Notes under the pieces: model-generated
The model's input: the letters and a program-made list of their open reading frames with translations, nothing else
Databases searched by the model: none
What the model was told of the DNA's origin: nothing
Position numbers and translations under genes: made by a program
Sequence record: NC_027395.1
DNA length: 64,000 nt
Strand: one strand, 5' to 3'
Source: Escherichia phage vB_EcoP_SU10
Part shown: piece by piece, positions 2,700 through 48,780 of the stretch
Numbering within the stretch: position 1 is the stretch's first letter
Layout of the letters: every line of letters begins with the position of its first letter

Positions 2700-5600
2700 A
2701 TGGCGCTGTATCCAATAAAGTCACTAGGTGCTGTAGGCGTTATCGCTGACCAAGCTCCGACAGACTTAGCTCCTAATGCTTTCACTAATGCTATAAATGC
2801 TCGATTTGTTGAGCAGAGAGTATTTAAGACGGGGGGCAATGCCCCTCTTTCTTATGTAGATGAAGATAAGGATTTAACCCCTCTGTCTTTCGTTTCTATG
2901 CCTTTCGATTATTATAGCGCAGGTAATAGCTTTCTTGTTGTAGGTACTAATAAGAAGTTATATAAACTGACAGATGAAAGCTTGACTGATATTAGCCGTA
3001 AGGTTGCTACAGTCACTAAGAAGGCTTCTGCCTCAATTAAGATTTATCCAGTTGTTTCTCAGATCGTTCCTAAAGAATCAACTATCTCAATGAACTTCAA
3101 TCAGACCAAGAATCTAGAGGTTTCTCTTCTCCCTGCTGATGCTAACAATACCAATCTTATTTGGGAGGTTAGTAACTCATCCTATGGAAGTATTACGGTA
3201 GACCCTAGTGACTCTAAACTTGCTACTCTAACATCTTTTGAGAAAGAGGGTAATCTTGTAGTAACTATCTCTACTGCCAATGAATCCGTAGTGGCTCAGA
3301 TTGCTGTTAATATCATCGATGGTGATTCAGGCATCTTCTTGAGTCAAGATACTGTTACAATTCGTAAAGGAGGGACTACTACTCTCACGGCTGTTACTGG
3401 TAAAACTCCTGTAACTTGGTCCAGCAATAATGCTTCTATTGTATCCGTAACCCCTAACGCCAACTCTTTAACTGCTGTCATTACAGCGAACGGAGAAGGT
3501 AATGTAACAATCACTGCTGATAACGGGACTAAGACTGCTTCTTGTGAGATTGTTTCTATCCCTCAGATTGATAGTATCTCTTTAAGCCAGTCAGATGTTA
3601 CTGTGAGTAGAGGTTCTCAGTATATTTTAACTGCCACCCTTTCTCCTGCTAACGCCCCTAATCAAAATATTACTTGGACCTCTTCTAACCCAAATATTGC
3701 AACAGTATCAGGGACTAGCACACAAGGGACGATCAACGCTCTGCTTGCTGGTTTTACTGAGATTACAGCTACCACTGAAGAAGGTAACAGAGTTGCTGTC
3801 TGTACTGTACGTGTGGATTTAGCTGGAAGGACAATGAGAACAAGTGCTATGGCATTTGCCGCTCCTGTGTCAGAGTCAGTAGAAACTCAAGAGGAAGAAG
3901 TAGTAACTCCTCCTGAAAGTGAAGAGACGGTTTATTTTGCTGAGCCTACATCCGGTATTGATACGTCAGGGATGTATGAAGGTAACAACTTCTATGACTA
4001 CTCTAACGTGAATGATATTGAAGGTTTTGCAAGAGCTTCTTTACTGGCAACCCCTTTGTCATCTGTAACCTTAGATATTGTCAGCGCTTCTCTTGATGTT
4101 GGTGAAGAGATTGTCATTACAGCCACAGCTTCTCCAGAAGGTGAGTACTCTTATCAGTGGTCTGTTGATAAAACTGGTTATGTTTCTACAACTTCAGTTA
4201 CTGGTAAATCTATCAAACTGGTTGCTCTTCGTAAAGGAGAGATTAACGTAACATGTACTGTCAGTCAGATGACTCAGAAAGATTACGATGCTTTTGATGA
4301 CTATCCTTGGTATCACGCTGTTATCTCTAACTGTGCAGTTGCTACAACTCACTATGAAACTCCTCAGGTAAAAGAATTCGAATCAGAATACTTTGTAGAC
4401 CTTCCGGGGTGGGGTGAGCAAACAGTTGTTGATAACGATGGAAACCCTTCAGTCAAGAAGTTTAACTGGAAATGTGAAAGAGTAAGATCTTTTAACAACC
4501 GTCTTTTTGCTCTGAATATGAGAGAAGCTAATGCTTCTGGTGTTACCACTAACTATCCGCTTCGTCTTCGTTGGTCTAACTTTGCCAATGAGAACAAGGC
4601 TCCTACACTGTGGGATGACTTTGCCTATGATCGAGTTGTGTCTTCGGACTTAGCTTCTAACATCGTAGGGCAGACTCAGGCTCTAGAGAATGGGTATGCT
4701 GGTTACATTGACTTAGCAGATTCTAATGGTAGCTTGATTGATATCCTACCTCTTAAGGATTACTTGTTCGTTTATACAGAGTTTGAAACGTATATTGGTT
4801 CTCCGACTAATAACACGTACCAACCTCTAATGTTCAAGAAGCTCTTTAACGACTCTGGTATCCTTGCTCCCGAGTGTGTGGTTGAAGTAGAAGGTAGTCA
4901 CTTCGTAGTTACTCAGAACGATGTAATCTTACACAATGGTGCAACCAAGAAATCAATTGCATCTAACCGTGTTAAGAATATGTTGATTAATGAGGTGTGT
5001 CTGGTTAACCCTCTAGCAACTCGAGTACACTTGCATCAGGATAAGAAAGAAGTTTGGGTTCTGTACGTAGGTCCGGGAGAACCAAAAGAAAGCTTCGCTT
5101 GTACTAAAGCTGCTGTATGGAATTATGAGTTTGATACTTGGTCTTTCCGTACTATTCCATATGCTCAGTGTATCGGTCTTGTTGATCCTCCTGTTTTAGA
5201 AAGAGGTCCAATCTGGTCTGACTTCCAAGAAATCACTTGGGATGACCCATCTATTAAAGAACTCGTTTGGAGAAAGGATGCAACAAACTTTAGACAGAGG
5301 GTTACGATAGTAGGTTCATTCTTGAAGGGATTCTATCAAGTGGATGTAGGTGCTCTTGATTATTTCTATGACAGGCTAAACGATGTTGTTATAGAGAAGC
5401 CTCTGGAAATGAGGTTGGAGAGGACTGGTATAGATTTTGATAATGTGACTAATGAGTGGAATCAGAAGCATATTAACAGGTTCCGGCCTCAGACAACCGG
5501 TTCAGGTACTTACATATTTGAAGCTGGTGGTAGTCAATTCTCAAATGAATATGGACACCCACACACATCGAAGACTTATACAATTGGTGTTGACAGGCAT

Positions 5601-19637: not shown

Positions 19638-21123
<1,486 letters not shown>

Positions 21124-21124
<1 letters not shown>

Positions 21125-21384
21125 TATTCTATTCCACGTTCTTTCAGAGCTTCTAACAATCCGTTGTGATTGGCAGCACATTCTGTGTACTGGTCCTGAT
21201 ACCACTCCAACGTAGTGGCTAGTGCTTTTCCTTGAGCACTCTCTAAAAGAGGTAGGTCAACCCTACATTCAGCTTTTAGGTTTGTTGGTAAGGGCATTGA
21301 TTGCCTGCTGTTGTCGCTCGTTGAACAAGCTGACATACTCATCACTAGCGCAGACATTATAAAAAACTGGTTTAGTTTTCTCAT
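21124..21384 (-). CDS. o-spanin candidate (outer-membrane lipoprotein)
   Basis: MRKLNQFFIMSALVMSMSAC signal peptide with lipobox-like Cys; overlaps 3' end of the i-spanin gene in another frame. Confidence 0.4.
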
Positions 21385-26155: not shown

Positions 26156-28000
26156 TTAGTGTGTATGCATCCAGTTAAGTCCAATCTGACAATCAGATGC
26201 CAGAGGACATTCCATGTTCAGATACTCGCCAGCTTTCTTAACACAAAGCTCAGTGTGCTCTTTGAGTTTCTGTACATCATTACGGTTTACTGAGAATTGA
26301 CCTTCATCGTGCATATCAATTACCTTAGCACAACGAACCTTATCTTTCTCAATCCACTTGTTAAGGAACATCATAGCATATTTCATAACAACAGCACCAG
26401 CACATTGCAGGAGTGTGTTAAGGGCTTTATGAACCATAACCTTACCAGTGGCATCCCGTCTCATTGTAATCTTACGACCATCAACTCCAATCAAGTATCC
26501 TTGAGCAGCTTTCTCTGTCATACGATCAATGAGGATTGCAATACATGGGTTCTCTGCTAAGAAACGTGCTCGCATCACTGAACCTTCGTCAGCCCCACCA
26601 CCTACAATTGAACCAAGCTTAGCATCGCCAGCACCGTAGTTGAATGCATAGATAAACGTTTTAGCGTTGTCACGAGTAGGAAGACCAGCAAGTTTCTGGT
26701 TATGGGAGTGGATATCACCTTCAAGGAGAATATCACGATACATAATAGCAGAAGCTAAACCACGTTCTGCCAGAGCTTTCTTAGCTGGGTTGTTCTCTTC
26801 TATTGCCTCAGCAAGCATATCCCTACACTCTTTAATGAGGTAGTGAGCTAGCATACGAAGTTCAAGTCCAGAACCATCATACCCTAAGAACACTTCTTTA
26901 CCAGCGGGTATGTAATATTTGTAAGCACCTATAGGTTTGTCTTTCTTCCCCGGCTTACCTTTCTCGTAAATTACGTTAGTACCTTTTCGTATATAACAAC
27001 CATCAGGAACAACGTTAGTAATAACGAAAGGACGAGAGTGATCACTGTCTGAGTTATAGTCAGACTCAAACAAACTGCGACACTCGTGACCAAACAGACC
27101 ACGGGAGGGAATATTAACCACGATACGATGTTTGAATCGAAAAGTCGGCGTAGCGCAGCTGTTAGCTTCTGCCGAAAGTTTACCATCTTCGCGTTCCTTT
27201 GCTATAAGTCCACTGATAAGACCTAGCCTGTGAGCCGCTACAACGCGTCTCTTAAGCAAACTTCCGACACTCCCTAGCTCACCCCCTAACCCTTCTTCAA
27301 GAGTCTCCTCGAGGTTTGTAGGAGCTGTAGGCCACTTGTTTGATGTGGCTAGTGCTTTCTTAATCTCATCAAACGTTACAGGATTACGGCGATTAGGGTT
27401 CAACCCCAAACCAAATACGTAAGCCTTCATGTAATTCTTAGTCTTAAACCTGAAATGCTTTTCTAAGAACTTCTTAATATCAGCGTCAACCATCTCGGCT
27501 GTCTGCTTCTGCTTAGCATTGCCTCGCATCCAAGCAGTATACCATGCTTGGTATGTTCCATACTTTCTCATATCTTTCTTAATTTCGAAAGTATTCCAAG
27601 GCTTCTTAGACACGTTAAACTCTGGAGGAAGAAAGCCCTCATCCATAAGAGCTTCTTTAACTCGTGCATCTTTCGATGGGTCAAAGTCTACGTATTCAAC
27701 ACAGGTGAAAGCTCCACCAATATCTTCTCTCTTCAGCCCAACCCTATCACAATAGGCTTGAGGCCACTTCTGTAAAGCTCCAGACTTCTTAAACGGCTTC
27801 ATGTAAGTAGAGCCGTCTAATCTCATCTTAGGTAAGAGAGGAATCAACTCTCTGTCAATATTAACAATAATCTCTTTAAGGAGGTGAACATACCACCGAG
27901 CATTTCTTCGGTTGAAACTCACTCCGTGCTTTGCTTGCTTAGAGATTATATCAGCGACAGTCATCTCTGTCAAAAATGGAAGAGCGTCCGGGTTGCTCAC
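26156..28000 (-). CDS. DNA polymerase (family A, T7 gp5-like), polymerase-domain ORF
   Basis: KTFIYAFNYGAGDAKLG matches T7 KTFIYGFLYGAGDEKIG; C-terminal HDEGQF; N-terminus aligns to the region just after the T7 exonuclease domain. Confidence 0.85.
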   Translation of the reverse strand: MSNPDALPFLTEMTVADIISKQAKHGVSFNRRNARWYVHLLKEIIVNIDRELIPLLPKMRLDGSTYMKPFKKSGALQKWPQAYCDRVGLKREDIGGAFTCVEYVDFDPSKDARVKEALMDEGFLPPEFNVSKKPWNTFEIKKDMRKYGTYQAWYTAWMRGNAKQKQTAEMVDADIKKFLEKHFRFKTKNYMKAYVFGLGLNPNRRNPVTFDEIKKALATSNKWPTAPTNLEETLEEGLGGELGSVGSLLKRRVVAAHRLGLISGLIAKEREDGKLSAEANSCATPTFRFKHRIVVNIPSRGLFGHECRSLFESDYNSDSDHSRPFVITNVVPDGCYIRKGTNVIYEKGKPGKKDKPIGAYKYYIPAGKEVFLGYDGSGLELRMLAHYLIKECRDMLAEAIEENNPAKKALAERGLASAIMYRDILLEGDIHSHNQKLAGLPTRDNAKTFIYAFNYGAGDAKLGSIVGGGADEGSVMRARFLAENPCIAILIDRMTEKAAQGYLIGVDGRKITMRRDATGKVMVHKALNTLLQCAGAVVMKYAMMFLNKWIEKDKVRCAKVIDMHDEGQFSVNRNDVQKLKEHTELCVKKAGEYLNMECPLASDCQIGLNWMHTH

Positions 28001-29718: not shown

Positions 29719-30456
29719 TTAAGCTTTCTTTTCCATTGCTTTAACAATCGCCTTACAGAAACCAGAACGAACAATGTCATCCGATTCTCCGTCTACAATC
29801 TCAGCGAACTCATACAGATCATGTTCATCAATAAAGTTAGTAGCCCAAGTAAGACCACTCTCACGACCACGCATATCATGCTGGTTTGTATCACCCATAC
29901 AGAACAATTGAGAGGTTTCTCCCAATCGAGTCATGATGGAGAAGGCTTCATCCTTAGTTGTGTTCTGGAACTCATCTACGATAACAATGGCATCATTGAA
30001 AGAGCGACCACGGAGATATTCCAGAGGTACAAATTCAATGTTACCATTTCCGATTTGGCATTCATAGAATCCCTTACCATATCGCTGAGTAATAACATCA
30101 ATGATAGGCATCAGGTAAGGTTCAAACTTCTCACGCATTCCTCCCGGAAGTAACCCAAGAGAGTTTCCCATGCCAACCGAAGGGCGACTCAGAATGATCT
30201 TCTGAATCTTACCACTTTTCAGTGCATCGATAACCGTGGAAGTGATTACAAAGGTCTTACCACAGCCCGCAGGAGCGTCTGTGAACACAACTTGTTTAGT
30301 CTTAATAGCATTGAGTAGCTCAGACTGAAACTGGTTCTGAGGGACTACAGGCTTTGCTAAAACCACCTCTTCATACTCTCGCTTACCCTTACGAGTAACA
30401 AGTGCTTCCCGACGAAGGTCTTTCCGTGATTCTTTCCGTGATTGACGACGACTCAT
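29719..30456 (-). CDS. phoH: PhoH-like ATPase
   Basis: Walker A DAPAGCGKTF and typical PhoH-like core (ILSRPSV ... IVIVDEFQN). Confidence 0.8.
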   Translation of the reverse strand: MSRRQSRKESRKDLRREALVTRKGKREYEEVVLAKPVVPQNQFQSELLNAIKTKQVVFTDAPAGCGKTFVITSTVIDALKSGKIQKIILSRPSVGMGNSLGLLPGGMREKFEPYLMPIIDVITQRYGKGFYECQIGNGNIEFVPLEYLRGRSFNDAIVIVDEFQNTTKDEAFSIMTRLGETSQLFCMGDTNQHDMRGRESGLTWATNFIDEHDLYEFAEIVDGESDDIVRSGFCKAIVKAMEKKA

Positions 30457-30638
30457 TTACGCTCTCCAATTTCTTCGTAATGACACTCAGTAGTTAAACA
30501 GTCTTTACAGATTGCTGTATAAACCCTGACGTTAGTAAATCGTTTGTTCTTCCCTTTGGTTGGAGAGCCTTTGGCAAGCTCTCTGATAATCTTGTTACTT
30601 AAATGAAGGTTTGTTCCTTCGCATTTAGAGCACTTCAT
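30453..30638 (-). CDS. zinc-ribbon protein
   Basis: 61 aa with CSKCEG ... CKDC. Confidence 0.4.
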   Translation of the reverse strand: MKCSKCEGTNLHLSNKIIRELAKGSPTKGKNKRFTNVRVYTAICKDCLTTECHYEEIGERK

Positions 30639-30954
30639 GGTTCATATCTTTATGAATCCTGTAAACAGCTGTCGCCATACAAGCAACAGCCTCATTGTGT
30701 GGGAGATGCATTCCTGTAGAACCATCCCAATCTTTGAACTCATTGTCAAAGACTCCGGTAGGCTCTGGATACAGAGCTTGCAGCTCCACTAGATCATTAG
30801 CAACTTGTTGCCATTTATCATCAGACCAGATAGGGTCATCCAACCAGTAATACAAATAGGAATGGATGATCAATTGCCTTCTATGCCGATTGATTACTTC
30901 AGCGGGACTTATTTCACTTCCATTTGAAGTCCTAAATGTATTACTGTCAATCAT
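30625..30954 (-). CDS. protein resembling domain Ia of NAD-dependent DNA ligase
   Basis: HSYLYYWLDDPIWSDDKWQQVANDLVELQALYPEP parallels LigA N-terminal [34 protein letters not shown]. Confidence 0.3.
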   Translation of the reverse strand: MIDSNTFRTSNGSEISPAEVINRHRRQLIIHSYLYYWLDDPIWSDDKWQQVANDLVELQALYPEPTGVFDNEFKDWDGSTGMHLPHNEAVACMATAVYRIHKDMNHEVL

Positions 30955-31136
30955 TTCACAACCTTAAATTTGAATGTTGTTGGGTGATAATAATGCAATC
31001 TATTGATAGTGTGTTTTGTTTCAAGATATATCCTGCAAGAGTGGCACATGACATGGGTCAGACCAGTTACAGGATTAGGTTTAAAGTTGGCGACAGTCTT
31101 CTCTTTATTACAGAAGCTACAGACTTTCTTTTCCAT
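30951..31136 (-). CDS. zinc-finger protein
   Basis: Start MEKKVCSFCNKEK with GGAGA RBS; C-x2-C ... C-x-S-C. Confidence 0.35.
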   Translation of the reverse strand: MEKKVCSFCNKEKTVANFKPNPVTGLTHVMCHSCRIYLETKHTINRLHYYHPTTFKFKVVK

Positions 31137-40316: not shown

Positions 40317-41519
40317 TTAGTAGTTTACAACAGTGCCATCATTCAGGGTAAGGCTGTTAATCTGCAACACACGACCAAGCTGGCGATCACTAATCGGTGC
40401 GTTCCACCCAGAGCGGTAGAAGTTACGACCACAGAAGAACAAGATCACATTACTTGCTACAGTTGAACCATTCTCAGGATGCTTGATATTAGCGATATAA
40501 TAACCACGACGTAAAGTACGACGGGTTACCGGGTTGATTTCTAATCCTTGTTCTTCAACCTGCATTGTTTCAGGAACAGGTTCCGATGATTCTTCAACAA
40601 CCGGCTCAGAGCTTTCCGCTGATAGTGCGAAATTCTCATCATCTGCTGATTCAGCAAACTCTTCCACTTCTTCAATAGGCAGTTCGTAAGCAACGCGGTA
40701 GTCAGGATCAACACCAGAGAAACTCTTAACAAACTCAACGATGTTGTGAGTGTAAGTTTCCAGAGTTGTTCCAGTCAGGCCCGGAGCTGTATTAACTTCC
40801 AGAACCCAAGCGTTAGTACCTTTGCTAATCAGGTCAACAGCACCGAAGTTCAAACCCAGAGCAGATACAGCTTTGTGGGCTTGAATCAGAACCTGATCAG
40901 GTGGCGCATCTTGGAAGTTTGAGGAATAAACCCAACCAGTATGATGGTTTCGAACGTCTTCACGATAGGAAGGATCTTCACGATAACCATTACGGCGAAT
41001 CTTTTTCTGAACATAGGTGATAACACCTTCAAACACATGAACACGCCATTCACGACGTGGGCCTAGAATGCCACGGGTATAGAGAGGGGCGGGAGCTACA
41101 CCTTCACCCTGAAGACGAACAGTGATACCTTCTCCAGAATGACCATTCAGAATAGCACGTTCATAAACAACACTATCCAGAGTCCACTCTGAAGCCTGAG
41201 CAGCACTGTCTGTGTATTCTACAGTATGTACCCCAGCAGCTTCCAAAGTTTGAAATGCTGTCATTTTGTTAGCGGCTCGGTTCAAGGCAACCACAGAGTT
41301 CAATACAGTTGCACCGCCAAAGAAAGCATCATTATATCGACGGTTTCCATAGTTGACAACAATATCACCAACTCGAGAACGATAACGAGAGCCTTCTGAT
41401 ACCAGAGACATTACGTTAGCATTTAAGCGAAGTTCCTGAATCTTAGTGTCAATTGCAGAAGTAAGTTCACGAACTGAATCAGAAGGGCCATAAGGAAGAA
41501 CACGGATACGAGTAGTCAT
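40317..41519 (-). CDS. ATP-grasp ligase
   Basis: WVLEVNTAPGLTG matches the E-x-N-x-x-P-G motif of ATP-grasp enzymes (RimK, D-Ala-D-Ala ligase). Confidence 0.65.
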   Translation of the reverse strand: MTTRIRVLPYGPSDSVRELTSAIDTKIQELRLNANVMSLVSEGSRYRSRVGDIVVNYGNRRYNDAFFGGATVLNSVVALNRAANKMTAFQTLEAAGVHTVEYTDSAAQASEWTLDSVVYERAILNGHSGEGITVRLQGEGVAPAPLYTRGILGPRREWRVHVFEGVITYVQKKIRRNGYREDPSYREDVRNHHTGWVYSSNFQDAPPDQVLIQAHKAVSALGLNFGAVDLISKGTNAWVLEVNTAPGLTGTTLETYTHNIVEFVKSFSGVDPDYRVAYELPIEEVEEFAESADDENFALSAESSEPVVEESSEPVPETMQVEEQGLEINPVTRRTLRRGYYIANIKHPENGSTVASNVILFFCGRNFYRSGWNAPISDRQLGRVLQINSLTLNDGTVVNY

Positions 41520-41521
41520 TG

Positions 41522-41746
41522 TTAGATACCTTTAAGTTTAAGAATTTCGTTACGAGTTTTTTGAATCTGAGCTTCAATTTCGAAGTAGTCGTTGAACGCA
41601 TCGTTCTCTACTTCATCGGATGGTGCATCAATCAGACCGAAAGCGAACGGATACAGCTTTCGCTGCTCCGTTACTAGTTCGATATGAACTCCTATGTAAT
41701 ACTGTAGGAGAGTAATCTTCGGTTTCTTAGGAACCAGATTTGACAT
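41522..41746 (-). CDS. small protein between ATP-grasp and amidotransferase genes
   Basis: 74 aa; start 2 nt after upstream stop. Confidence 0.4.
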   Translation of the reverse strand: MSNLVPKKPKITLLQYYIGVHIELVTEQRKLYPFAFGLIDAPSDEVENDAFNDYFEIEAQIQKTRNEILKLKGI

Positions 41747-41960
41747 GAGGTTCTACCTTAATGCCTTTGATTTTTACATAATCAGCAAGCACGTTGTTGA
41801 TCACCGTTGGGAAAGGAACCTCAACCTGTGTTTCAAGTACTTGACCAATACCAGCTTGCATCCACTTTTGGATTGCACGAAGGTTATCACATCCTGTGCT
41901 CGTCATCGGGATACGTCGAGTAGTTACAACGTTATCCAGCATCATCTTACGAATTTCCAT
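41727..41960 (-). CDS. small protein between ATP-grasp and amidotransferase genes
   Basis: 77 aa; start 2 nt after amidotransferase stop (TAA-GT-ATG). Confidence 0.4.
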   Translation of the reverse strand: MEIRKMMLDNVVTTRRIPMTSTGCDNLRAIQKWMQAGIGQVLETQVEVPFPTVINNVLADYVKIKGIKVEPHVKSGS

Positions 41961-41962
41961 AC

Positions 41963-43993
41963 TTAACCTCTATTCAATGAACATTTAGGGGAATTACAAT
42001 AAACTTGATTCATAGAACCAAGCGTACAACTTTCAGCATCGCGCCACGGAATCTGCTTAAAACACTCTGAGCAGTAGCCGAGGGTTGACCACATGGCTTT
42101 GGTGAAGTCAGTGCTTCGGTTTCCGTCGAAGCTGACAACAGTTTTGCGGAGAGTTGTTCGTGATTCAGGAAACACACCTGCTTTCTCAGCAGGTTCCTCC
42201 TTTTTTGGCTTAGTTGAGATTGCAAAAATACTGTTGCTACGTTTCTCAACATAAGCATCAACAACATCCTCCAGAGTGATGCCTGTCTGTTTCGCTGAGG
42301 AAGGTAATACAGTCATACGACCGATCATATCTTCAGTTACACGTAAAGCAAATTCAGGACGACGGGCGTTTGTTGTATCTGTTGCTTTAATCCAGATATA
42401 ACCATCTTTGATCGTAGCATTAGATACTTTCTTCTTTACTTCTACAGCGCAGACTTTACAGATATCTTCACCACGAAGACGACTGAGTTCCTCATCAAAC
42501 TCATTCTCTGTTTTAACTTCACCACAGATTTCACAAACACCAATAGGAGTCTCCTCCTCTTCTTCCTCTTTAGGTTTAGTCAAACCTTCCAGACATTCAG
42601 GATGCCAGTAGCACTGATATGCGAAGACTGCTTTAGGTGCATCCTTCCAATCAATGTGCTTATCACAACCACCACAATCGCCATGAGAGTGTGCTTCCCA
42701 GAATTTACGAGTGATAGTAACACCATTCTTGTTGACGAAACTATCATTCATATCAAAAGGGATATCATCATCAAAGTCAGCAGTAGTAGACTCAGGCTCC
42801 TTTTTCTCCAGAGATGGGTCAACAAAACGACCTGCTGTGATCACTAAGCGAACCATAGCATTAACTTCGGAGATGCAGGATACTGTCCCACGGTAAACAA
42901 TTTTAGGGTCTTTCAGGGCATCCTGATAAGCCTTAATGTCTACGTTATGAACATCACCTTCGATATACTCTTGAGACTTCTCATCGTAGATATAACCAAT
43001 CATCTTACCACGAGAAGGAACAGCACCAGCAGTTGCATAAGGAACAAACTCATGCGGAGTGATTTCCACAGTCATATCTCGGCGAATGTCAATGTTTCGA
43101 TCGCTTGCGATTTTGTTTTGACTTACCACTGCGTTTCTTCGACGAACGTCTGCCGCTGTCACTCCCGGCTTCGTGTCGTAAGGATTGCTTGTATTGCTTT
43201 TTGAGGAACTTTGATAGTTGCTTTGGCTGTAGTTGTTCGAGTAATAACTGCCCCAACGATTGGCTACCGTAAAAACCGGAAGCTCGTGGGCGACCTCTTC
43301 AACCAGAGTCATGCTGTTGTTTGACATATCAAAGATATATTCTGTACCAACTTTACATTCAAAATGCTCATCAATACGGTTCTTGTGAGATCTAGAACGC
43401 TTCAGAATCCACATCAACATGTCTTCTTCAGAAGCACCAAACCAATCTCTGTTACAACGTGCGAGGTGGAATGGACGCTCTTCGTTACGGATGATATGAA
43501 GACGGTTATCAGAAGCATCATGCCAGATTAAGGTGAAAGCACCATCCAGCTTTTGAATAGTCTCTGCTGCACCAATAGTGTTAATAGAGTGGCAGATGTT
43601 CTCACTGTCTACCTCGAAGTTTTTGCTGTCAGGTAACAGATCTTGGTCCATCAAGGTTCCATTATGAACCAGAGTGATGTTACCATGTTGGAAAGGATGG
43701 GCGTTCTTGGCGTTAACTGCACCTTTCGTTGCATGACGACTGTGACCAACAATCCATGAAGGTGCTACAGTGTAAGCTGTTTCACCAGTGGTGTGCTTCT
43801 TGTACTCATCTTGTAGGATGAATGCGAAAGAAGGAAGAGCTTCTTTATAAGTGAAGACTTCCTTAGTACTTTTACGCTGACCAAAGATACCGGAGGAATG
43901 TTGTCCTCGGAATACTCCAGCATAAAAGAGTTGGTTAAATACGTCTAAATCAGTGCTTGACAGATTACCGCCAGCTAATACGATGCCACAAAT
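41963..43993 (-). CDS. class II (Ntn) glutamine amidotransferase fused to a Cys-rich C-terminal domain; apparent non-canonical (ATT) start
   Basis: Hand translation upstream of track start gives (I)CGIVLAGGNL...FRGQHSSGIFG ... HATKGAVNAKNAHPFQHGNITLVHNGTL, like PurF/GlmS N-termini; C-terminus has several CxxC pairs. Confidence 0.7.
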   Translation of the reverse strand: MCGIVLAGGNLSSTDLDVFNQLFYAGVFRGQHSSGIFGQRKSTKEVFTYKEALPSFAFILQDEYKKHTTGETAYTVAPSWIVGHSRHATKGAVNAKNAHPFQHGNITLVHNGTLMDQDLLPDSKNFEVDSENICHSINTIGAAETIQKLDGAFTLIWHDASDNRLHIIRNEERPFHLARCNRDWFGASEEDMLMWILKRSRSHKNRIDEHFECKVGTEYIFDMSNNSMTLVEEVAHELPVFTVANRWGSYYSNNYSQSNYQSSSKSNTSNPYDTKPGVTAADVRRRNAVVSQNKIASDRNIDIRRDMTVEITPHEFVPYATAGAVPSRGKMIGYIYDEKSQEYIEGDVHNVDIKAYQDALKDPKIVYRGTVSCISEVNAMVRLVITAGRFVDPSLEKKEPESTTADFDDDIPFDMNDSFVNKNGVTITRKFWEAHSHGDCGGCDKHIDWKDAPKAVFAYQCYWHPECLEGLTKPKEEEEEETPIGVCEICGEVKTENEFDEELSRLRGEDICKVCAVEVKKKVSNATIKDGYIWIKATDTTNARRPEFALRVTEDMIGRMTVLPSSAKQTGITLEDVVDAYVEKRSNSIFAISTKPKKEEPAEKAGVFPESRTTLRKTVVSFDGNRSTDFTKAMWSTLGYCSECFKQIPWRDAESCTLGSMNQVYCNSPKCSLNRG

Positions 43994-44072
43994 TTTCTAA
44001 TCCACCTGAAGGGTAAACCCTTTCATCTAATTAACCTTTAAATTGTGCCCCTTTGTCAGAGGCACCCATTGA

Positions 44073-45176
44073 TTACAGCGCTTGCTCTAACTGATTTTCC
44101 AGATGGTCTGGAATGTACCCTGTGATATTGCTATCACTGTGACCAGACTCACGTAGTAAGTCAAAAATAGCACGAATACGTTGTTCTGGAGCGTGTCTTA
44201 CTTGAGATAGGTCTGCTGTACGAAGCATAACCAAAATCTCTTGATACAAGTTGTTAGCGTTCCCTCGAACATATCCAAGGAATCCATAGAAGTCTGACAT
44301 AAGACGTAAGTCAACAAGAACCTCTCCGTTGGAGTTGGTTCGACGTAAACGAATACGACCAGACTGTTCTACTTCATGAGAACGGCAATACAAAACATCA
44401 CGGGCCATACAATAACCTGAATGCAAATCAGATTCATCCAGATTGTAATCCAGAGGAAGGTAAGGAAGCATTGGGGCAAATCGTACAGTATTTAAATGCT
44501 CAATAAACTGATCATTGCTCATCTCTGCGTTATCTAAAGCCAGCTTCTTCAACATCAAGAAGCGGTTAACCAGATTGAGAAGTTGACCACGTTTCCACTT
44601 AGGCTCACTGATACGGAACTCAATTGAACCGTATTGGGCAAGTGGCAGAAGGTTCAGAGATGTATATTTATCCCATGAACGAACCAGACGGTTGAAGAAT
44701 TCTTCACCATCGTAGTTAAATGCGTCAGAGGCATTCATTACCTGTGCTTGTACCACTGCAAACGCAGGGCAGAAATTGCTACGGTAACGATGGTAGCCTG
44801 AACACTTGAACAGCATCTTTTCATAGAAGGTCCAAGCAAGGATGGTCTTCTTGAGGATATTACTATCAGCATCCCTCATATCCATATGAACGTGAGTAGA
44901 GCAACGCCAAGTCCCCTCGGCGTGCGATTCAGCTACTGCTTCACTCAGGTTGTTGATAGCGTCTAACAACTCCTGTCCGTTGTAAGGTCGTGAACATACC
45001 ATTTCACAACCATTACGCAGGGAACCATCCTCTGTGCAATCCCACATATCTGCTTCGATATGTTCAGAACCTTCGAGTTCAAGTTCAATACCGACACCGC
45101 ACTGAAGTGCAATTGAACTATGCGCCTCAGTTAAACGACCTTCTCGATATCCAAAAGTTTGCGCTACAGTTGTCAT
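44073..45176 (-). CDS. glutamine-synthetase-like amidoligase (carboxylate-amine ligase)
   Basis: GVGIELELEG near N-terminus and WRCSTHVHMD; resembles GCS2/amidoligase E-x-E and HVH motifs. Confidence 0.55.
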   Translation of the reverse strand: MTTVAQTFGYREGRLTEAHSSIALQCGVGIELELEGSEHIEADMWDCTEDGSLRNGCEMVCSRPYNGQELLDAINNLSEAVAESHAEGTWRCSTHVHMDMRDADSNILKKTILAWTFYEKMLFKCSGYHRYRSNFCPAFAVVQAQVMNASDAFNYDGEEFFNRLVRSWDKYTSLNLLPLAQYGSIEFRISEPKWKRGQLLNLVNRFLMLKKLALDNAEMSNDQFIEHLNTVRFAPMLPYLPLDYNLDESDLHSGYCMARDVLYCRSHEVEQSGRIRLRRTNSNGEVLVDLRLMSDFYGFLGYVRGNANNLYQEILVMLRTADLSQVRHAPEQRIRAIFDLLRESGHSDSNITGYIPDHLENQLEQAL

Positions 45177-45790
45177 AACGAATCCACCAACGTAATATTA
45201 TAATTGCTAAGGTTTTCAGAAATGTGATGAAAGTGTTCCAGAAGTCGCATCGGTTGCTGACCGTAAGAGTCACGAGGTGCTTCCAGATCTACTTGTCCTA
45301 CCAGTGCACCTTTATAATGCACTTTACCATCTGTAGGATTGATGTAAATATAACGAGTAACCAATCCATCAAATTCAGGATTGAACAGACTGTAAACCAT
45401 TTCACCAGAGATCGAACGACCAATCCCCGGAGCGTTTCGAATCTTGTTACCCATCAAACCCTTCGCTCTCTGACGAACAGGATTGATATGAGTCCAGCTT
45501 ACAGTGTTACCGTTATGGAACAGATAACCAACATCAGGCGATTCAAGAATCAAGGTTGGGTCGAACACTGGAATATTCATCGTAGTGTTTCGGAGATTCC
45601 CATGCTCGTTCTTGTACCACTGCTCTACAACAAAATACAGAGCCTGTTCTGCTTCATGCGAGAAGTCATCGCTGCGGAAGTTACCGCTCTGCTCAACACC
45701 AATCACAAAACACGGAAGGTTGATATTGCCTGCTCGTTTAGCAATCCATGTACCATTATAGTAATGAGAAAAATCAGCTACTAAGCTCAC
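45173..45790 (-). CDS. hypothetical protein in amidoligase operon
   Basis: 205 aa, overlaps neighbours by 4 nt. Confidence 0.5.
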   Translation of the reverse strand: MSLVADFSHYYNGTWIAKRAGNINLPCFVIGVEQSGNFRSDDFSHEAEQALYFVVEQWYKNEHGNLRNTTMNIPVFDPTLILESPDVGYLFHNGNTVSWTHINPVRQRAKGLMGNKIRNAPGIGRSISGEMVYSLFNPEFDGLVTRYIYINPTDGKVHYKGALVGQVDLEAPRDSYGQQPMRLLEHFHHISENLSNYNITLVDSL

Positions 45791-45799
45791 GATAACCTC

Positions 45800-46606
45800 T
45801 TATGCTACCTGAAGGAGTTTGATCTGCTGGTCAGCTTCTTTAACGTTGTTCCCGTTAATGATTTCATGAAGCTTCTCAATCGGAAGGCGAGAGTGCAATG
45901 CCATCAGAGTGGACATATCACACTGCTGAACAACCTTGTCAACCTGATCGTAAACAAACTTACGGTTTTCACGATCACTAATCCAGAAGTTAGACAGAGA
46001 ACGGTATTCAATACCATAGTCTTTATAACGGATTGCAGATGCTTTACCGTAGAGTTCTTTACGGCGAGTATCTTTGTCCATAATCACTGCTGGGAGAGAC
46101 AGGAAGTAGTCACACAGCACACCCAGCATCATCTGAGTTTGCAGAGTGATATCCAAAGCACCAACTACGCCAAGATGTACGTGACCACCGGCAGTACGAA
46201 GTCCCTTATTCTGAGAAGTCGGGGATGGGTTTTTCTGACCAGTGAAGGCGTTGAAATCAGGAGTGCACCCGAAGATGAACGCTGATTCATTAAAGGTCTT
46301 CATCTCTTCTTCAGTGAAGATGTGAGAGCTAACACCCGGAGCTGTTTCCATGTCCAGTTTGTTCAGGACATTATTGGTGAGATCGATACCACGTTGCATG
46401 TTATCGTTAAACGCTTCAAAACCGCTCTGTGGGTCAATATCAAACTCAGCCAGTACGTTGTCCTCTTGGAGACGAACATCCTTAGCCAGAGCGATCTTAT
46501 CGTCCTTAGAGCAGCCTAATAAACCGGCTACAGAAGTGATGATACCATTTCTAGTACGAACAAACATTTCAGGGTCAGAGCCGATAAGGAATTTGCGCTT
46601 AGTCAT
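45800..46606 (-). CDS. second amidoligase-like protein
   Basis: KFLIGSDPEMF N-terminal acidic motif and TAGGHVHLGVVG, same motif arrangement as 44073..45176. Confidence 0.45.
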   Translation of the reverse strand: MTKRKFLIGSDPEMFVRTRNGIITSVAGLLGCSKDDKIALAKDVRLQEDNVLAEFDIDPQSGFEAFNDNMQRGIDLTNNVLNKLDMETAPGVSSHIFTEEEMKTFNESAFIFGCTPDFNAFTGQKNPSPTSQNKGLRTAGGHVHLGVVGALDITLQTQMMLGVLCDYFLSLPAVIMDKDTRRKELYGKASAIRYKDYGIEYRSLSNFWISDRENRKFVYDQVDKVVQQCDMSTLMALHSRLPIEKLHEIINGNNVKEADQQIKLLQVA

Positions 46607-47570
46607 TGTAATACTCCACTAGTTCAGAAAAGAGAGATGAGATTGTGTTACCAACTTCTTCAAGAGTAAGACCGGAATCTGCTCCAGTTCTTTGAATCAG
46701 TCGGGCTGTAAAGTTTTGTACTGTAATGTTTCCCAACTTGTCGTCTATTGCTTCACGTTTGTGACCATAACAGTTGGACCAGAGTCTTAACCACTCTGAC
46801 ATTGTTTCATACTCGTCCGGGTCTTGATCTTTAGCACGAGCAAATCTTCGTAAGGCACCTTGGTTATGGTTACGAACATAACCATTCTCGTTGTCGCCAA
46901 CACCGAAGGGGTTTTGAACCCATACTTGCTTCGTGTATTCATCAGAGTCTACAACCAAAGGAAGGAATGCTGCTGCTGACATATTGTTGTTAATAACAAT
47001 AGAGGTGCTCTCACTACTCCCATTGGCTCTTCCTCGTTGAGACCATCCACCGAAGAAGTCACGACCCAACCCAGCTAACACTAGAGCGATTCCGATGCGT
47101 TTACGCTTCAGCCACTCTTCCCTGTCTTCAATTCCTTCTGCTAGGAAATCCATTCCACGATATTGCCCTTCCAGAATACTACGAAAGAGCATAAGTCCTG
47201 TGAAGATCTGATCTGCTGGATGCTCACGAAGGTTGACAGCAACACTATTCGCTGAAGTGATCGTAAATACGTCACGATAGCAAGACATGGAGTTCATAAT
47301 GTCTGCTGTTTCAACCAAGTTCTTTTCAATATCAGATGCAACATGACCATGAAAAGAGTGAGTCCAGTAATTCAACATCTCCAGTTGCAAGTTGATATCA
47401 CGGTTGAAGCGACGATAGCGCCCCTCTTCCGTGATAACTTCACCATTAATGTCATTTACACACTGGCCTTGCATGTAGTTGTGGATACCGAAGCACCCAC
47501 GACCTAAGAACTTCTGTTCCCCTAAATCCTGTTGAAGATTAAGAGGTACGATCGTTGTGGAGATTGACAT
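46599..47570 (-). CDS. hypothetical protein in amidoligase operon
   Basis: 323 aa. Confidence 0.5.
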   Translation of the reverse strand: MSISTTIVPLNLQQDLGEQKFLGRGCFGIHNYMQGQCVNDINGEVITEEGRYRRFNRDINLQLEMLNYWTHSFHGHVASDIEKNLVETADIMNSMSCYRDVFTITSANSVAVNLREHPADQIFTGLMLFRSILEGQYRGMDFLAEGIEDREEWLKRKRIGIALVLAGLGRDFFGGWSQRGRANGSSESTSIVINNNMSAAAFLPLVVDSDEYTKQVWVQNPFGVGDNENGYVRNHNQGALRRFARAKDQDPDEYETMSEWLRLWSNCYGHKREAIDDKLGNITVQNFTARLIQRTGADSGLTLEEVGNTISSLFSELVEYYND

Positions 47571-47580
47571 AACTAACCTT

Positions 47581-48780
47581 TTATTTTCCTAAAAACAATC
47601 CGCTCATAATACCATCCCACTCAGAGGATGGAATCACTGAATACTCCGAACTTTGGTCCAGAGTCCCACTACTGAATCGCTGAACAATATTATAAATATT
47701 GAAAAAATCCTTAGTCTCAGCGCGATAAGCGTAGACTAATTTGTCAGCCGTTCTTTCATCTTTAGAAACTCGACGAGCAAAGGTAACCAGAAGATTGTCA
47801 CCTTTGAGCATTTCTGACCCATCTTTTACTAAATCAGGGTGCATCACTGGCAAGAACATTGAGTTGTTCACTCGTAATTCTGCTGTTTCATCATTCTCAT
47901 AATGAATCCACTTAAAATCTTCATCACGAAAGTGACCGCACCCATCTCTGTATGACTGTTGACGCCAAGGCACTTGAAATGCTTCAGCGTATTTATCAGC
48001 CATGCCGACTGTAAATAGCGACGCTGGAAAGATACAAGCATCCCAATCATTACCAACCAGAGTTGCTTTCGTTTCGCCCAAGAGGTTAGTGTAAGTGCTA
48101 ACCATTCGTGAGTAAACATAAGCCTGAAGGATTGTCCAGCCTTCAACCAACCATTTATGGAGGAAGGTTTCAACTTGACTCTCTTCATCTTCATAATAGA
48201 AGGTTCGGTCTAACATCAAATAGAACAGACAACGATCAGCAGGGATATTCTCAGTTGCTACCCCCATAAAACCTTTATCGTGCCAGCGTAAACAGGAGGG
48301 ACGATCTTTGTCCACAAATGCTTCCATAGCTTCCAGTACAGCACGAGGTGTGGTTCGATGTTCAGGGTTTTTGTCGTTCCAACGTTCGATGTTATTCTTG
48401 GGAGGTGTGTCTTCATCTTCATACGAACACCAACTTAAAGCTTCAGCTACATGCTTTTCATCACGCCAACGTCTAAAACCTAACATCTTCATATGAGTTC
48501 CGGAGTTCCAGATATGCTTGATTTTACACATATCCATCTCTCGGCTTAACAAGAATTCTTCCCCGTCAGCACTACGAACGTTGGCTTCTTCATGCCACAC
48601 TCGAACGTGCATATTCCATCCATGAGTTGCCTCATACATGTTAGGGTCGAAGTAGTCATCATCTTCATCGTCGTTTTCATCAACGCCGCCATTATAGTTG
48701 CGAAGTTGAAGGAACCCATAACAAGGGGGGTTGACCGTTAAAACATTACCTTCAGTATCTTCTAATGTTACTGGAAACAT
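47581..48780 (-). CDS. hypothetical protein in amidoligase operon
   Basis: 399 aa with acidic stretch DENDDEDDDYFD. Confidence 0.5.
   Translation of the reverse strand: MFPVTLEDTEGNVLTVNPPCYGFLQLRNYNGGVDENDDEDDDYFDPNMYEATHGWNMHVRVWHEEANVRSADGEEFLLSREMDMCKIKHIWNSGTHMKMLGFRRWRDEKHVAEALSWCSYEDEDTPPKNNIERWNDKNPEHRTTPRAVLEAMEAFVDKDRPSCLRWHDKGFMGVATENIPADRCLFYLMLDRTFYYEDEESQVETFLHKWLVEGWTILQAYVYSRMVSTYTNLLGETKATLVGNDWDACIFPASLFTVGMADKYAEAFQVPWRQQSYRDGCGHFRDEDFKWIHYENDETAELRVNNSMFLPVMHPDLVKDGSEMLKGDNLLVTFARRVSKDERTADKLVYAYRAETKDFFNIYNIVQRFSSGTLDQSSEYSVIPSSEWDGIMSGLFLGK

What the first reader, a model, noticed from the sequence alone, without database searches (positions are those of the whole stretch)
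30625..30954. Standalone protein resembling domain Ia of NAD-dependent DNA ligase
A 109-aa ORF parallels the LigA N-terminal NMN-binding domain (YLYYWLDDPIWSDDKW...ELQALYPEP versus [19 protein letters not shown]...ELETKHPEL) with no adenylation domain attached. It could modulate host LigA or bind NAD/NMN.
Basis: inference. Interest (0 to 1): 0.35.

Follow-up and report, generated by a model that had tools for sequence, protein, structure and literature searches.

The report
Standalone ligase NAD-binding domain protein
This E. coli phage gene encodes only the small NAD-gripping front piece of bacterial DNA ligase and none of the enzyme itself; the protein family was already catalogued and published in 2022, its function is untested, and the clues gathered here tie it to the DNA-copying machinery.

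Summary
Window 30625..30954 (minus strand) encodes a 109-aa protein that matches Pfam PF22745 "Nlig-Ia" (E=2e-35). Its AlphaFold model (pLDDT 91) has NAD+-dependent DNA ligases as its 28 best PDB matches, superposing on the ~47-residue domain Ia hairpin at 0.6-1.0 A. All five LigA NMN-contact positions are invariant in its clade (Y, Y, D, W, Q versus E. coli Y22, H23, D32, Y35, D36).

The window is a phiEco32-like Kuravirus with its own polymerase, exonucleases and primase-helicase but no ligase catalytic module. The common database label "NAD-dependent DNA ligase" is therefore wrong.

The finding is not new. Iyer et al. 2022 described solo Nlig-Ia proteins in 81 phages, using the 77%-identical, syntenic orthologue ECBP2_0056 as their example, and proposed an NAD+ sensor or shield.

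What I add at family level:
- The gene sits in replication or nucleotide-metabolism modules in five unrelated phage lineages.
- Two clades carry beta-clamp-binding-type termini (C-terminal QxSLF; N-terminal MQKSLF in Dp-1, next to the clamp-loader genes).
- Rhodococcus phages fuse the domain to a DNA helicase.

Best reading: a replisome-associated NAD+/NMN-binding module that probably supports nick sealing by host LigA. Function remains untested.

The parts
30625..30954 (-). CDS of the solo Nlig-Ia protein (109 aa plus stop)
   Evidence: ORF list. Pfam PF22745 E=2.1e-35. PHROG 6466 E=2e-43. 100% identical to phages myPSH2311 and EK5, 99.1% to phiEco32. 77% identical and syntenic to the published exemplar ECBP2_0056.
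30757..30915 (-). LigA-like part: residues ~14-66, the domain Ia helical hairpin (helix 17-36, loop, helix 45-61)
   Evidence: The family profile aligns to E. coli LigA residues 2-53 only. Foldseek superposes ~47 columns on LigA structures at 0.6-1.0 A. Helices come from the AF2 model.
30847..30852 (-). Pocket residues Y35-Y36 (equivalent to E. coli LigA Y22-H23)
   Evidence: Invariant in 57 homologues. Residue map. The H23 position is also Y in the T. filiformis (1v9p/1dgs) and 8ak4 LigA chains.
30808..30822 (-). Pocket residues D45, W48, Q49 (equivalent to LigA D32, Y35, D36)
   Evidence: Invariant in the window's clade. Distant solo proteins keep the canonical Y/F-D at the last two positions.
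30700..30738 (-). Family-specific signature F73-K-D-W-D-G-S-T-G-M-H-L-P85, absent from LigA by sequence
   Evidence: F73, W76, G78, T80, G81, H83, L84, P85 are invariant in alignment A1. The core F-[KR]-x-[FW]-x-x-x-T-G-x-x-[LF] is kept in distant Gram-positive phage proteins. It is not covered by the profile-LigA alignment.
30637..30693 (-). C-terminal helix (residues 88-106), a family-specific addition that probably packs on the hairpin
   Evidence: AF2 secondary structure, pLDDT 86-95 over this stretch. There is no LigA counterpart in the alignments. The packing is inference.
30951..31136 (-). Upstream small CxxC…CxxC protein (61 aa, phrog_15951); its stop overlaps the Ia start codon (ATGA). 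Context only, function unknown.
30453..30638 (-). Downstream small CxxC…CxxC protein (61 aa, phrog_14369); its start overlaps the Ia gene end by 14 nt. Context only, function unknown.
26156..28000 (-). Family A DNA polymerase (context: replication module on the same strand)
   Evidence: Pfam DNA_pol_A E=2.5e-23.
37186..38976 (-). Primase-helicase (context: replication module on the same strand)
   Evidence: Pfam DnaB_C E=1e-10. Annotated DNA primase/helicase in the sister phage.

Best explanation
The gene encodes a standalone Nlig-Ia protein. It has the two-helix NMN-binding hairpin of bacterial NAD+-dependent DNA ligase (residues ~14-66), completed by a family-specific loop motif and a third helix (residues ~67-106) that stand in for the missing ligase body. 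It cannot ligate anything because it has no nucleotidyltransferase domain and no active-site lysine.

It most likely binds the nicotinamide-mononucleotide end of NAD+ (or free NMN) in a pocket built from Y35, Y36, D45, W48 and Q49. It lies in the cluster that phiEco32 papers class as middle genes, alongside the replication genes of a phage that has its own polymerase, exonucleases and primase-helicase but no ligase. That phage must therefore use host LigA to seal Okazaki fragments.

My preferred mechanism is that the protein acts at or near phage replication forks as an NAD+-handling accessory for host LigA. It would capture or present NAD+, or recruit NAD+-loaded LigA, so that nick sealing of phage DNA continues, especially when NAD+ is scarce.

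Status of each step:
- Shown: identity, fold, pocket conservation, absence of a ligase, and the replisome links of relatives.
- Inferred: NAD+/NMN binding (probability ~0.7), action with the replisome or LigA (~0.4), and the direction of the effect (stimulation rather than inhibition).
For: Identity and fold:
- Pfam Nlig-Ia E=2e-35.
- AF2 model pLDDT 91.
- PDB Foldseek ranks 1-28 are all LigA, about 47 columns at 0.6-1.0 A.
- The family profile hits E. coli LigA residues 2-53.

Pocket:
- The positions equivalent to LigA Y22/H23/D32/Y35/D36 are invariant Y/Y/D/W/Q in 57 homologues.
- Y at the H23 position also occurs in genuine LigAs.
- Distant solo proteins keep the canonical Y/F-D.
- The review PMC7470946 states that the nicotinamide stacks between a pair of tyrosines. 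Those two positions hold Y35 and W48 here.

No ligase in the phage:
- Pfam, PHROG and NCBIfam scans of 29 of the window's ORFs (most of the larger minus-strand ones) found no ligase nucleotidyltransferase domain.
- No plausible K-x-D-G motif occurs in any reading frame of 150 aa or more.
- In the complete sister genome the only 'DNA ligase' is this Ia-only gene.
- Iyer et al. report the same for 80 of 81 phages.

Replication link:
- The gene lies between the DNA polymerase and the primase-helicase, in what the phiEco32 literature classes as the middle cluster.
- Homologues sit in replication or nucleotide modules in Arthrobacter Lizalica, Rhodococcus RGL3, Clostridium CS29 and Streptococcus Dp-1.
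- 19 of 120 homologues, and 9 of 150 representatives clustered at 50% identity, end exactly in Qxx[LIM]F after variable linkers.
- The Dp-1 clade starts with a conserved Q[KN][ST][LI]F and lies between recA and the clamp-loader genes, near a phage dnaN.
- The clamp-binding consensus is QL(S/D)LF or QxxL(x)F, and LigA itself binds the clamp (PMC4976356; PMC4549789).
- ReqiPepy6 gp102 is Nlig-Ia fused to a DNA helicase.
Against: - No binding or activity data exist for any family member.
- The window's own protein has neither a clamp motif nor a helicase fusion, so the replisome link is transferred from relatives.
- Kuraviruses use a T7-like replisome without a clamp.
- Three metagenomic neighbourhoods are plain early or accessory regions with no replication genes nearby. 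There is no conserved partner gene.
- LigA already has its own Ia domain in cis, so how a trans Ia would help is unclear.
- D36 is replaced by Q in this clade, which could change ligand preference.
- A stoichiometric binder cannot buffer a millimolar NAD+ pool.
- The published interpretation is that the protein works independently of any ligase.
Confidence: 0.42

Rival explanations
1. It is a free NAD+ sensor or NAD+ shield, as Iyer et al. proposed in 2022. The protein would bind NAD+ in the cytoplasm, independently of any ligase. It would either report to the phage that host NADase defence effectors have fired, or protect a small NAD+ pool from them.
For: This is the published proposal for exactly this orthologue group. 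The pocket is conserved. The phage lacks a ligase. The same phage carries another NAD/ADP-ribose-network gene, a DarG-like macrodomain. Several homologues lie in early or accessory regions typical of counter-defence genes.
Against: No output domain or conserved partner exists that could transmit a 'sensed' signal. Shielding by a ~100-aa stoichiometric binder is quantitatively implausible. The model does not explain the clamp-binding termini, the helicase fusion or the replication-module context.
Confidence: 0.28
2. It is an inhibitor or hijacker of host LigA. The free Ia module would dock on the LigA nucleotidyltransferase domain, or compete for the NMN end of bound NAD+, and block adenylylation. 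This would shut down host DNA repair and replication.
For: Domain Ia is the part of LigA that must close over the nucleotidyltransferase domain for step 1 (PMC7470946). A trans copy could compete with it. Clamp tethering in relatives would place it next to LigA.
Against: These phages encode no ligase of their own. They have lagging-strand machinery, including a primase-helicase and a 5'-3' exonuclease. Blocking the only available ligase would therefore harm the phage. No precedent is known to me.
Confidence: 0.1
3. It binds a different ligand. The W48/Q49 variant pocket would recognise another nicotinamide- or ADP-ribose-derived molecule, such as an immune signalling nucleotide, nicotinate mononucleotide or ADP-ribose. 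The protein would act as a sponge, or would let a host enzyme use an alternative AMP donor.
For: The D36-to-Q and Y35-to-W substitutions are invariant in alignment A1, and WQ is the commonest pocket pair among cluster representatives (78 of 150). The loss of a carboxylate could suit an uncharged or anionic ligand. The invariant extra motif next to the pocket is unexplained.
Against: Distant solo proteins keep the canonical Y/F-D pocket and share the same C-terminal signature, so the family's core function probably involves the canonical NMN moiety. There is no association with known signalling-defence countermeasures.
Confidence: 0.1
4. It is a true but mis-sized DNA ligase, or a decaying remnant of one, as current GenBank annotations imply.
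For: It is annotated 'DNA ligase' or 'NAD-dependent DNA ligase' in phiEco32, SkaterBoy, YF01, Dp-1 and many other phages.
Against: It has no nucleotidyltransferase, OB, zinc-finger, HhH or BRCT domains. It scores 15.9 bits against the NCBIfam LigA model, whose cutoff is 369. The family has 1,083 cluster representatives, almost all 60-190 aa, with invariant motifs. That indicates strong purifying selection on the short form, not decay.
Confidence: 0.01

Closest known systems
Solo Nlig-Ia proteins of phages (Pfam PF22745; Iyer, Burroughs, Anantharaman & Aravind 2022, Viruses 14:1977; exemplar ECBP2_0056)
   Same: It belongs to the same family and the same orthologue group. It is 77% identical to ECBP2_0056 and sits in the same position between phoH and thyX, downstream of the DNA polymerase. 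It is a solo ~100-aa protein in a ligase-less phage with a conserved ligand pocket.
   Different: The protein itself shows no substantive difference. My analysis adds features that the paper's Nlig-Ia section (read in full) does not describe; the word 'clamp' occurs nowhere in its main text and the shown 'helicase' passages are unrelated to Nlig-Ia. These are clamp-binding-type termini in two clades, a helicase fusion, the recurrent replication-module context, the family-wide C-terminal signature, and the W-Q versus Y-D pocket split.
Domain Ia of bacterial NAD+-dependent DNA ligase LigA (e.g. E. coli LigA residues 1-69; PDB 5tt5, 2owo, 1tae)
   Same: The two-helix hairpin fold superposes at 0.6-1.0 A over ~47 residues. 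The sequence aligns to LigA residues 2-53. Residues are kept at the five positions essential for reaction with NAD+: Y22=Y, H23->Y (also Y in some LigAs), D32=D, Y35->W, D36->Q. That these five are essential is my own knowledge of Sriskanda & Shuman 2002, cited.
   Different: It is not attached to a nucleotidyltransferase domain. It carries an extra ~45-residue C-terminal module with an invariant motif and a third helix that has no sequence counterpart in LigA. D36 is replaced by Q in this clade. It cannot catalyse any ligation step.
Short-motif beta-clamp clients (consensus QL[SD]LF / QxxL(x)F; e.g. Pol II, Pol IV, Hda, LigA)
   Same: Relatives of this protein carry a terminal Qxx[LIM]F pentapeptide after a variable Pro/Ala- or Lys-rich linker presumed disordered, the standard architecture of clamp clients.
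   Different: The window's own protein has no such motif. Its N-terminus is folded (pLDDT 85) and lacks the Q. Clamp binding has not been tested for any member.

Membership tests
Solo Nlig-Ia (Pfam PF22745) | Match to the family profile above the curated cutoff | tested here: met
   121.7 bits against a gathering cutoff of 27, E=2.1e-35, covering profile positions 1-90 of 92.
Solo Nlig-Ia (Pfam PF22745) | Standalone protein of ~100 aa with no ligase catalytic module in the same polypeptide | tested here: met
   The ORF is 109 aa with overlapping neighbour genes. Homologues are 69-189 aa.
Solo Nlig-Ia (Pfam PF22745) | Domain Ia helical-hairpin fold | tested here: met
   AF2 model pLDDT 91. The top 28 PDB Foldseek hits are all LigA, rmsd 0.6-1.0 A over ~47 columns, although E-values are weak (0.08-1.7) because the domain is short.
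Solo Nlig-Ia (Pfam PF22745) | Conservation of the NMN/NAD+-contact positions | tested here: met
   All five positions are invariant in the clade. Two are identical to E. coli LigA, two are conservative (H->Y, Y->W) and one is changed (D->Q).
Solo Nlig-Ia (Pfam PF22745) | Host phage lacks NAD+- and ATP-dependent ligase catalytic modules (true of 80 of 81 phages in the defining paper) | tested here: met
   Domain scans of the window's ORFs, a motif I scan, and the full annotation of the 96%-identical sister genome.
Solo Nlig-Ia (Pfam PF22745) | Actual binding of NAD+ or NMN | not testable with these tools
   This needs ITC, thermal-shift assays or crystallography. No experimental paper was found.
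NAD+-dependent DNA ligase LigA (EC 6.5.1.2) | Nucleotidyltransferase domain with the motif I lysine (K-x-D-G) | tested here: not met
   The only above-cutoff Pfam match is Nlig-Ia; the single other hit, Imm41, is sub-threshold. The protein ends at residue 109. No K-x-D-G motif occurs in the sequence.
NAD+-dependent DNA ligase LigA (EC 6.5.1.2) | OB fold, Zn finger, HhH and BRCT domains; full-length match to the LigA equivalog model | tested here: not met
   NCBIfam NF005932 LigA scores 15.9 bits against a cutoff of 369 and matches only model positions 3-46 of 664.
NAD+-dependent DNA ligase LigA (EC 6.5.1.2) | N-terminal domain Ia | tested here: met
Beta-clamp-binding proteins (terminal QL[SD]LF-type motif) | Qxx[LIM]F pentapeptide at a presumably disordered terminus | tested here: not met
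   The motif is absent from the window protein. It is present in 19 of 120 homologues, in 10 of 150 representatives, and in the whole Dp-1 clade.

The most novel reading that the evidence does not exclude
Solo Nlig-Ia proteins are replisome-tethered, trans-acting cofactors that let ligase-less phages commandeer host LigA. Tethering would be by clamp motif, by helicase fusion, or by an unknown contact in Kuraviruses. The proteins would hold the NMN end of NAD+ and hand it, or NAD+-loaded LigA, to nicks in phage DNA, so that Okazaki-fragment sealing continues even when NADase defences (Thoeris, DSR/SIR2, TIR systems) drain the NAD+ pool. A bolder version is that the W-Q pocket lets LigA draw AMP from an alternative donor such as ADP-ribose.
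Probability: 0.25. Interest if true: 0.7.

Novelty: already known. Interest (0 to 1): 0.3.

Why it matters
The practical point is annotation. This gene is labelled "DNA ligase" or "NAD-dependent DNA ligase" in phiEco32, many Kuraviruses, Dp-1, and SEA-PHAGES Arthrobacter phages, and even a helicase fusion in Rhodococcus phages carries that label. Genome papers count it as the phage's ligase (e.g. YF01 gp57). It is not a ligase, and these phages are ligase-less.

The biological point is scale and context. The family is large: 1,083 cluster representatives at 50% identity, and 276 cultured-phage records. It is under strong selection and has never been tested experimentally. If it couples NAD+ to the phage replisome or to host LigA, it would be a new kind of accessory factor. 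It would sit at the intersection of replication and the NAD+-centred arms race between phages and bacterial defences. The clamp motifs and the helicase fusion give concrete experiments to run.

Tried and rejected
**Ideas tested and rejected**
- A true ligase: rejected, because there is no catalytic domain.
- A hidden ligase elsewhere in the window: none was found. The unassigned 475-aa "nucleotidyltransferase" (35263..36690) has a Pol-beta/CCA-adding-type GGAVRD…DID motif and no K-x-D-G. The only K-[hydrophobic]-D-G in a long frame lies in the glutamine amidotransferase ORF.
- Weak Pfam Imm41 hit (21.2 bits, below the 26.9 cutoff) and PDB STN1 hits (E 0.2-0.6): disregarded as chance helical similarity.
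- A clamp motif in the window protein's own N-terminus (DSNTF): rejected. It has no Q and no linker, and the segment is folded.
- His83 as a catalytic residue: rejected. It is D, G or N in distant members, and only T80-G81 and the aromatic/hydrophobic positions are family-wide.
- Homology of the C-terminal signature to LigA's conserved D-S-P-T-Q-R-V-G segment: not supported. The profile alignment stops at LigA residue 53.
- A conserved operon partner: none across 12 neighbourhoods.
- Other fusions: P0209 and P0230 carry a PHROG labelled "minor head protein"; the extensions of P0162, P0195, P0288, P0184 and P0194 have no family match. These were uninformative.

**Searches and calls that failed**
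- Literature searches for experimental work returned nothing relevant.
- The primary mutagenesis paper (PubMed 11781321) is not held.
- A tree-based test of how many times the clamp tail arose failed to run. I relied on linker diversity and on the 50%-identity representatives instead.
- Searches were technical errors and were repeated.
Full report
**1. The observation**

Window 30625..30954 holds an ATG-to-stop ORF of 109 aa on the minus strand. Its start codon overlaps the stop of the upstream small gene (ATGA). Its last 14 nt overlap the start of the next gene. It is therefore one cistron of a tightly packed minus-strand operon. The LigA string they compared it with is the real E. coli LigA N-terminus, as printed.

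**2. What the window is**

The region is 93-97% identical to Kuravirus-type (phiEco32-like) E. coli podophages of about 77 kb. The protein is 100% identical to those of phages myPSH2311 and EK5 and 99.1% identical to that of phiEco32. On the same strand lie:
- a family A DNA polymerase (26156..28000);
- PhoH (29719..30456);
- ThyX (31747..32403);
- a thioredoxin-like ORF (32419..32694), named from the sister-genome annotation;
- dCTP deaminase;
- a 3'-5' exonuclease;
- a primase-helicase (37186..38976);
- further along, a 5'-3' exonuclease.

In phiEco32 the polymerase and nucleotide-metabolism cluster belongs to the middle temporal class (PMC8948821). That this particular gene shares that timing is inference.

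**3. Is it really a domain Ia?**

Yes, on four independent tests:
- Pfam PF22745 "Nlig-Ia, DNA ligase-like N-terminal NAD+-binding domain" matches at E=2.1e-35, covering 90 of 92 profile positions. PHROG 6466 matches at E=2e-43.
- The single sequence already finds LigA N-termini weakly in the PDB (E 0.05-0.15). A profile of 57 homologues finds E. coli LigA best (5tt5, 4glx, 2owo; E 4-7e-4), aligning to LigA residues 2-53.
- An AlphaFold2 model built on that alignment is confident (pLDDT 91, pTM 0.82), with helices at 17-36, 45-61 and 88-106.
- Foldseek against the PDB returns only NAD+-dependent ligases at ranks 1-28. They superpose on 47-68 columns, about 47 of them at 0.6-1.0 A. Against viral models it returns other solo phage proteins first, then the N-termini of full-length viral NAD+ ligases.

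It is not met.

**4. Same as and different from LigA Ia**

The profile alignment gives this residue map:

| E. coli LigA | Window protein |
|---|---|
| Y22 | Y35 |
| H23 | Y36 |
| D32 | D45 |
| Y35 | W48 |
| D36 | Q49 |

These five LigA residues are the ones required for reaction with NAD+. That is my own knowledge of Sriskanda & Shuman 2002, which is cited but was not readable here. A review states that the nicotinamide stacks between a pair of tyrosines (PMC7470946).

All five positions are invariant in 57 homologues. Y at the H23 position also occurs in the T. filiformis and 8ak4 LigA chains. The W-Q pair is a variant of the clade that includes this proteobacterial-phage protein. Solo proteins of Gram-positive phages keep the canonical Y/F-D. 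Among 150 cluster representatives the pair is WQ in 78, WD in 14, FD in 12 and YD in 7.

Beyond residue ~66 the protein has no LigA counterpart. An invariant F-x-D-W-x-G-x-T-G-x-H-L-P motif (residues 73-85) and a third helix (88-106) form a family-specific module. Its core, F-[KR]-x-[FW]-x-x-x-T-G-x-x-[LF], is kept even in the most distant solo proteins.

**5. It is not a ligase, and the phage has none**

The protein scores 15.9 bits against NCBIfam's LigA model, whose cutoff is 369. Pfam, PHROG and NCBIfam scans of 29 of the window's ORFs (most of the larger minus-strand ones) found no ligase nucleotidyltransferase domain. The unassigned 475-aa "nucleotidyltransferase" carries a Pol-beta/CCA-adding-type GGAVRD…DID motif and no K-x-D-G motif. 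No reading frame of 150 aa or more has a plausible ligase motif I.

In the fully annotated sister genome SkaterBoy_Bas90 (131 features), the only "DNA ligase" is this Ia-only gene. A phage with a primase-helicase and a 5'-3' exonuclease makes Okazaki fragments. It must therefore borrow host LigA to join them. That is inference from established replication biology.

**6. Already known**

Iyer, Burroughs, Anantharaman and Aravind (Viruses 2022; PMC9503650) reported the Nlig-Ia domain as a solo protein in 81 phages. All but one of those phages lack any ligase catalytic module. The authors noted that the ligand-binding residues are conserved and proposed an NAD+ sensor or NAD+ shield.

Their named example, ECBP2_0056, is 77% identical to the window protein. 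It sits in the same place, downstream of the polymerase and between phoH and thyX. Pfam has since curated the family. I found no experimental study. Kuravirus genome papers still list the gene as the phage's NAD-dependent DNA ligase (PMC9965538).

**7. What I can add at family level**

*(a) Size.* A profile search of 1.84 billion cluster representatives finds 1,083 members at E≤1e-3 and 591 at E≤1e-10. Almost all are 60-190 aa. Some 276 cultured-phage records carry one: Escherichia, Arthrobacter, Clostridium, Enterococcus, Erwinia, Rhodococcus, Streptococcus and others.

*(b) Context.* In five unrelated lineages the gene lies inside the replication or nucleotide module:

| Phage | Gene order around the solo Ia gene |
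|---|---|
| Kuravirus (this window) | polymerase … PhoH – Ia – ThyX … primase-helicase |
| Arthrobacter Lizalica | primase/helicase – Pol I – x – Ia |
| Rhodococcus RGL3 | thymidylate synthase – Pol I – … – Ia – deaminase |
| Clostridium CS29 | DnaB – NrdD – Ia – NrdG – primase – dUTPase |
| Streptococcus Dp-1 | DnaN – RecB – RecU – dUTPase – RecA – Ia – DnaX – gamma/tau – HolA |

Three metagenomic loci and three poorly annotated phages show only small unknown ORFs nearby. No partner gene is conserved.

*(c) Clamp-type termini.*
- 19 of 120 close homologues end exactly in Q-x-x-L-F. Examples are QMSLF, QASLF, QLSLF and QMALF. The motif follows Pro/Ala-rich linkers of different lengths.
- In the 50%-identity representative set, 9 of 150 do so with quite different linkers, some of them Lys-rich. 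One more starts with MKQRSLF.
- In Dp-1 an ATG overlapping the recA stop codon (TAATG) gives gp16 the N-terminus MQKSLFG, followed by a basic/Pro linker.
- Across 27 Dp-1-clade proteins, down to 49% identity, Q2 is at least 90% conserved and F6 is invariant, while the linker varies.
- These termini match the beta-clamp-binding consensus QL(S/D)LF or QxxL(x)F, and LigA itself is a clamp client (PMC4976356; PMC4549789).
- One tail-bearing member lies in a lambda/P22-like temperate phage, the kind that replicates with the host replisome.
- The 2022 paper does not mention clamps.

*(d) Helicase fusion.* Rhodococcus phage ReqiPepy6 gp102 is annotated "DNA ligase". It is actually Nlig-Ia (E=1.6e-32) followed by a DNA helicase (PHROG 62, E=2.7e-63; weak DEAD/ResIII/Helicase_C hits). 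Its ReqiPoco6 sister aligned over 105 columns with my model.

*(e) Tandem repeats.* One representative (P0252) appears to carry three tandem Ia units by HMMER stretch count, of which Pfam confirms two.

**8. Mechanism**

Three features are hard to reconcile with a purely cytoplasmic sensor: the clamp motifs, the helicase fusion and the replication-module context. They are easy to reconcile with a module that works at replication forks. The phages concerned lack a ligase. The domain's only known role in cells is to orient the NMN leaving group of NAD+ on LigA.

My preferred reading is therefore an NAD+/NMN-binding accessory that supports nick sealing of phage DNA by host LigA. My probabilities for the successive steps are:
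- about 0.97 for identity;
- about 0.7 for NAD+/NMN binding;
- about 0.4 for replisome or LigA coupling.

Weaknesses:
- The window's own protein has no tether, and Kuraviruses use a clampless T7-like replisome.
- How a trans Ia would help an enzyme that already has one in cis is unknown.
- No biochemistry exists for any member.

The sensor/shield model of Iyer et al. remains a serious rival (about 0.28). A LigA-inhibitor role and an altered-ligand role each get about 0.1.

**9. Verdict**

The finding is real and correctly interpreted, but it re-discovers a published, Pfam-curated family in the very phage group used as that family's exemplar. Novelty is "already known". Interest is modest, at 0.3. 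What raises it above routine is the open function and the new, testable replisome link.

Noticed in passing
window 20684..21205 (-): A 173-aa Macro-domain protein (Pfam PF01661, E=1.3e-10). Its macro half matches the DarG antitoxin, a DNA ADP-ribosyl glycohydrolase, at E=7.9e-42 (NCBIfam NF048014). It is probably a phage counter-measure to DarT-type DNA ADP-ribosylation. It is labelled only 'phosphatase' in the sister genome. It is a second NAD/ADP-ribose-network gene in this phage, about 10 kb from the Ia gene.
   Followed up: partly
L015 25168..26796 (Rhodococcus phage ReqiPepy6 gp102; sister of ReqiPoco6 Gp102, D4P7X0): This 542-aa protein is annotated 'DNA ligase'. It is actually a solo-type Nlig-Ia domain fused to a superfamily-2 DNA helicase (PHROG 62, E=2.7e-63). 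It has no ligase catalytic domain.
   Followed up: yes
L008 3845..4258 (Streptococcus phage Dp-1 gp16): The annotated start (ATT at 3845) is probably wrong. An ATG at 3899 overlaps the recA stop codon (TAATG) and yields a 119-aa protein beginning MQKSLFG. This N-terminus is a clamp-binding-type motif conserved across the clade. The gene sits between recA and the clamp-loader genes.
   Followed up: yes
window 35263..36690 (-): A 475-aa 'nucleotidyltransferase' (phrog_12715) with no Pfam, NCBIfam or PDB sequence match. It has a GGAVRD…DID motif typical of Pol-beta/CCA-adding-type enzymes and a long C-terminal region that appears low in complexity. Its function in Kuraviruses is unknown.
   Followed up: partly
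window 40317..48780 (-): The phiEco32-type peptide-ligase cluster: a RimK-like ATP-grasp, a glutamine amidotransferase, an Amidoligase_2, a 'phiEco32-like COOH.NH2 ligase type 2', and two large proteins (323 and 399 aa) with no family assignment beyond Kuravirus-specific PHROGs.
   Followed up: no
window 30453..30638 (-) and 30951..31136 (-): Both genes flanking the Ia gene encode 61-aa proteins with CxxC…CxxC spacing, like zinc ribbons, and both are translationally coupled to it. One metagenomic homologue (P0010, 167 aa) has a CxxC…CxxC region fused to the C-terminus of its Ia domain. A functional link was not examined.
   Followed up: no
P0252 (321 aa, metagenomic representative): A protein that appears to be made of three tandem Nlig-Ia units (HMMER reports 3 stretches, Pfam confirms 2). 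P0209 and P0230 fuse the domain to a ~200-aa region matching phrog_13900 ('minor head protein').
   Followed up: partly
L014 4680..5282 (Erwinia jumbo phage AH06 gene 126): A 200-aa protein annotated 'DNA ligase, adenylation domain'. It is an Nlig-Ia domain (E=1.9e-17) with a ~100-aa N-terminal extension that matches only phrog_11329 (unknown function, E=1.8e-4). It lies next to the thymidine kinase and dihydrofolate reductase genes.
   Followed up: partly
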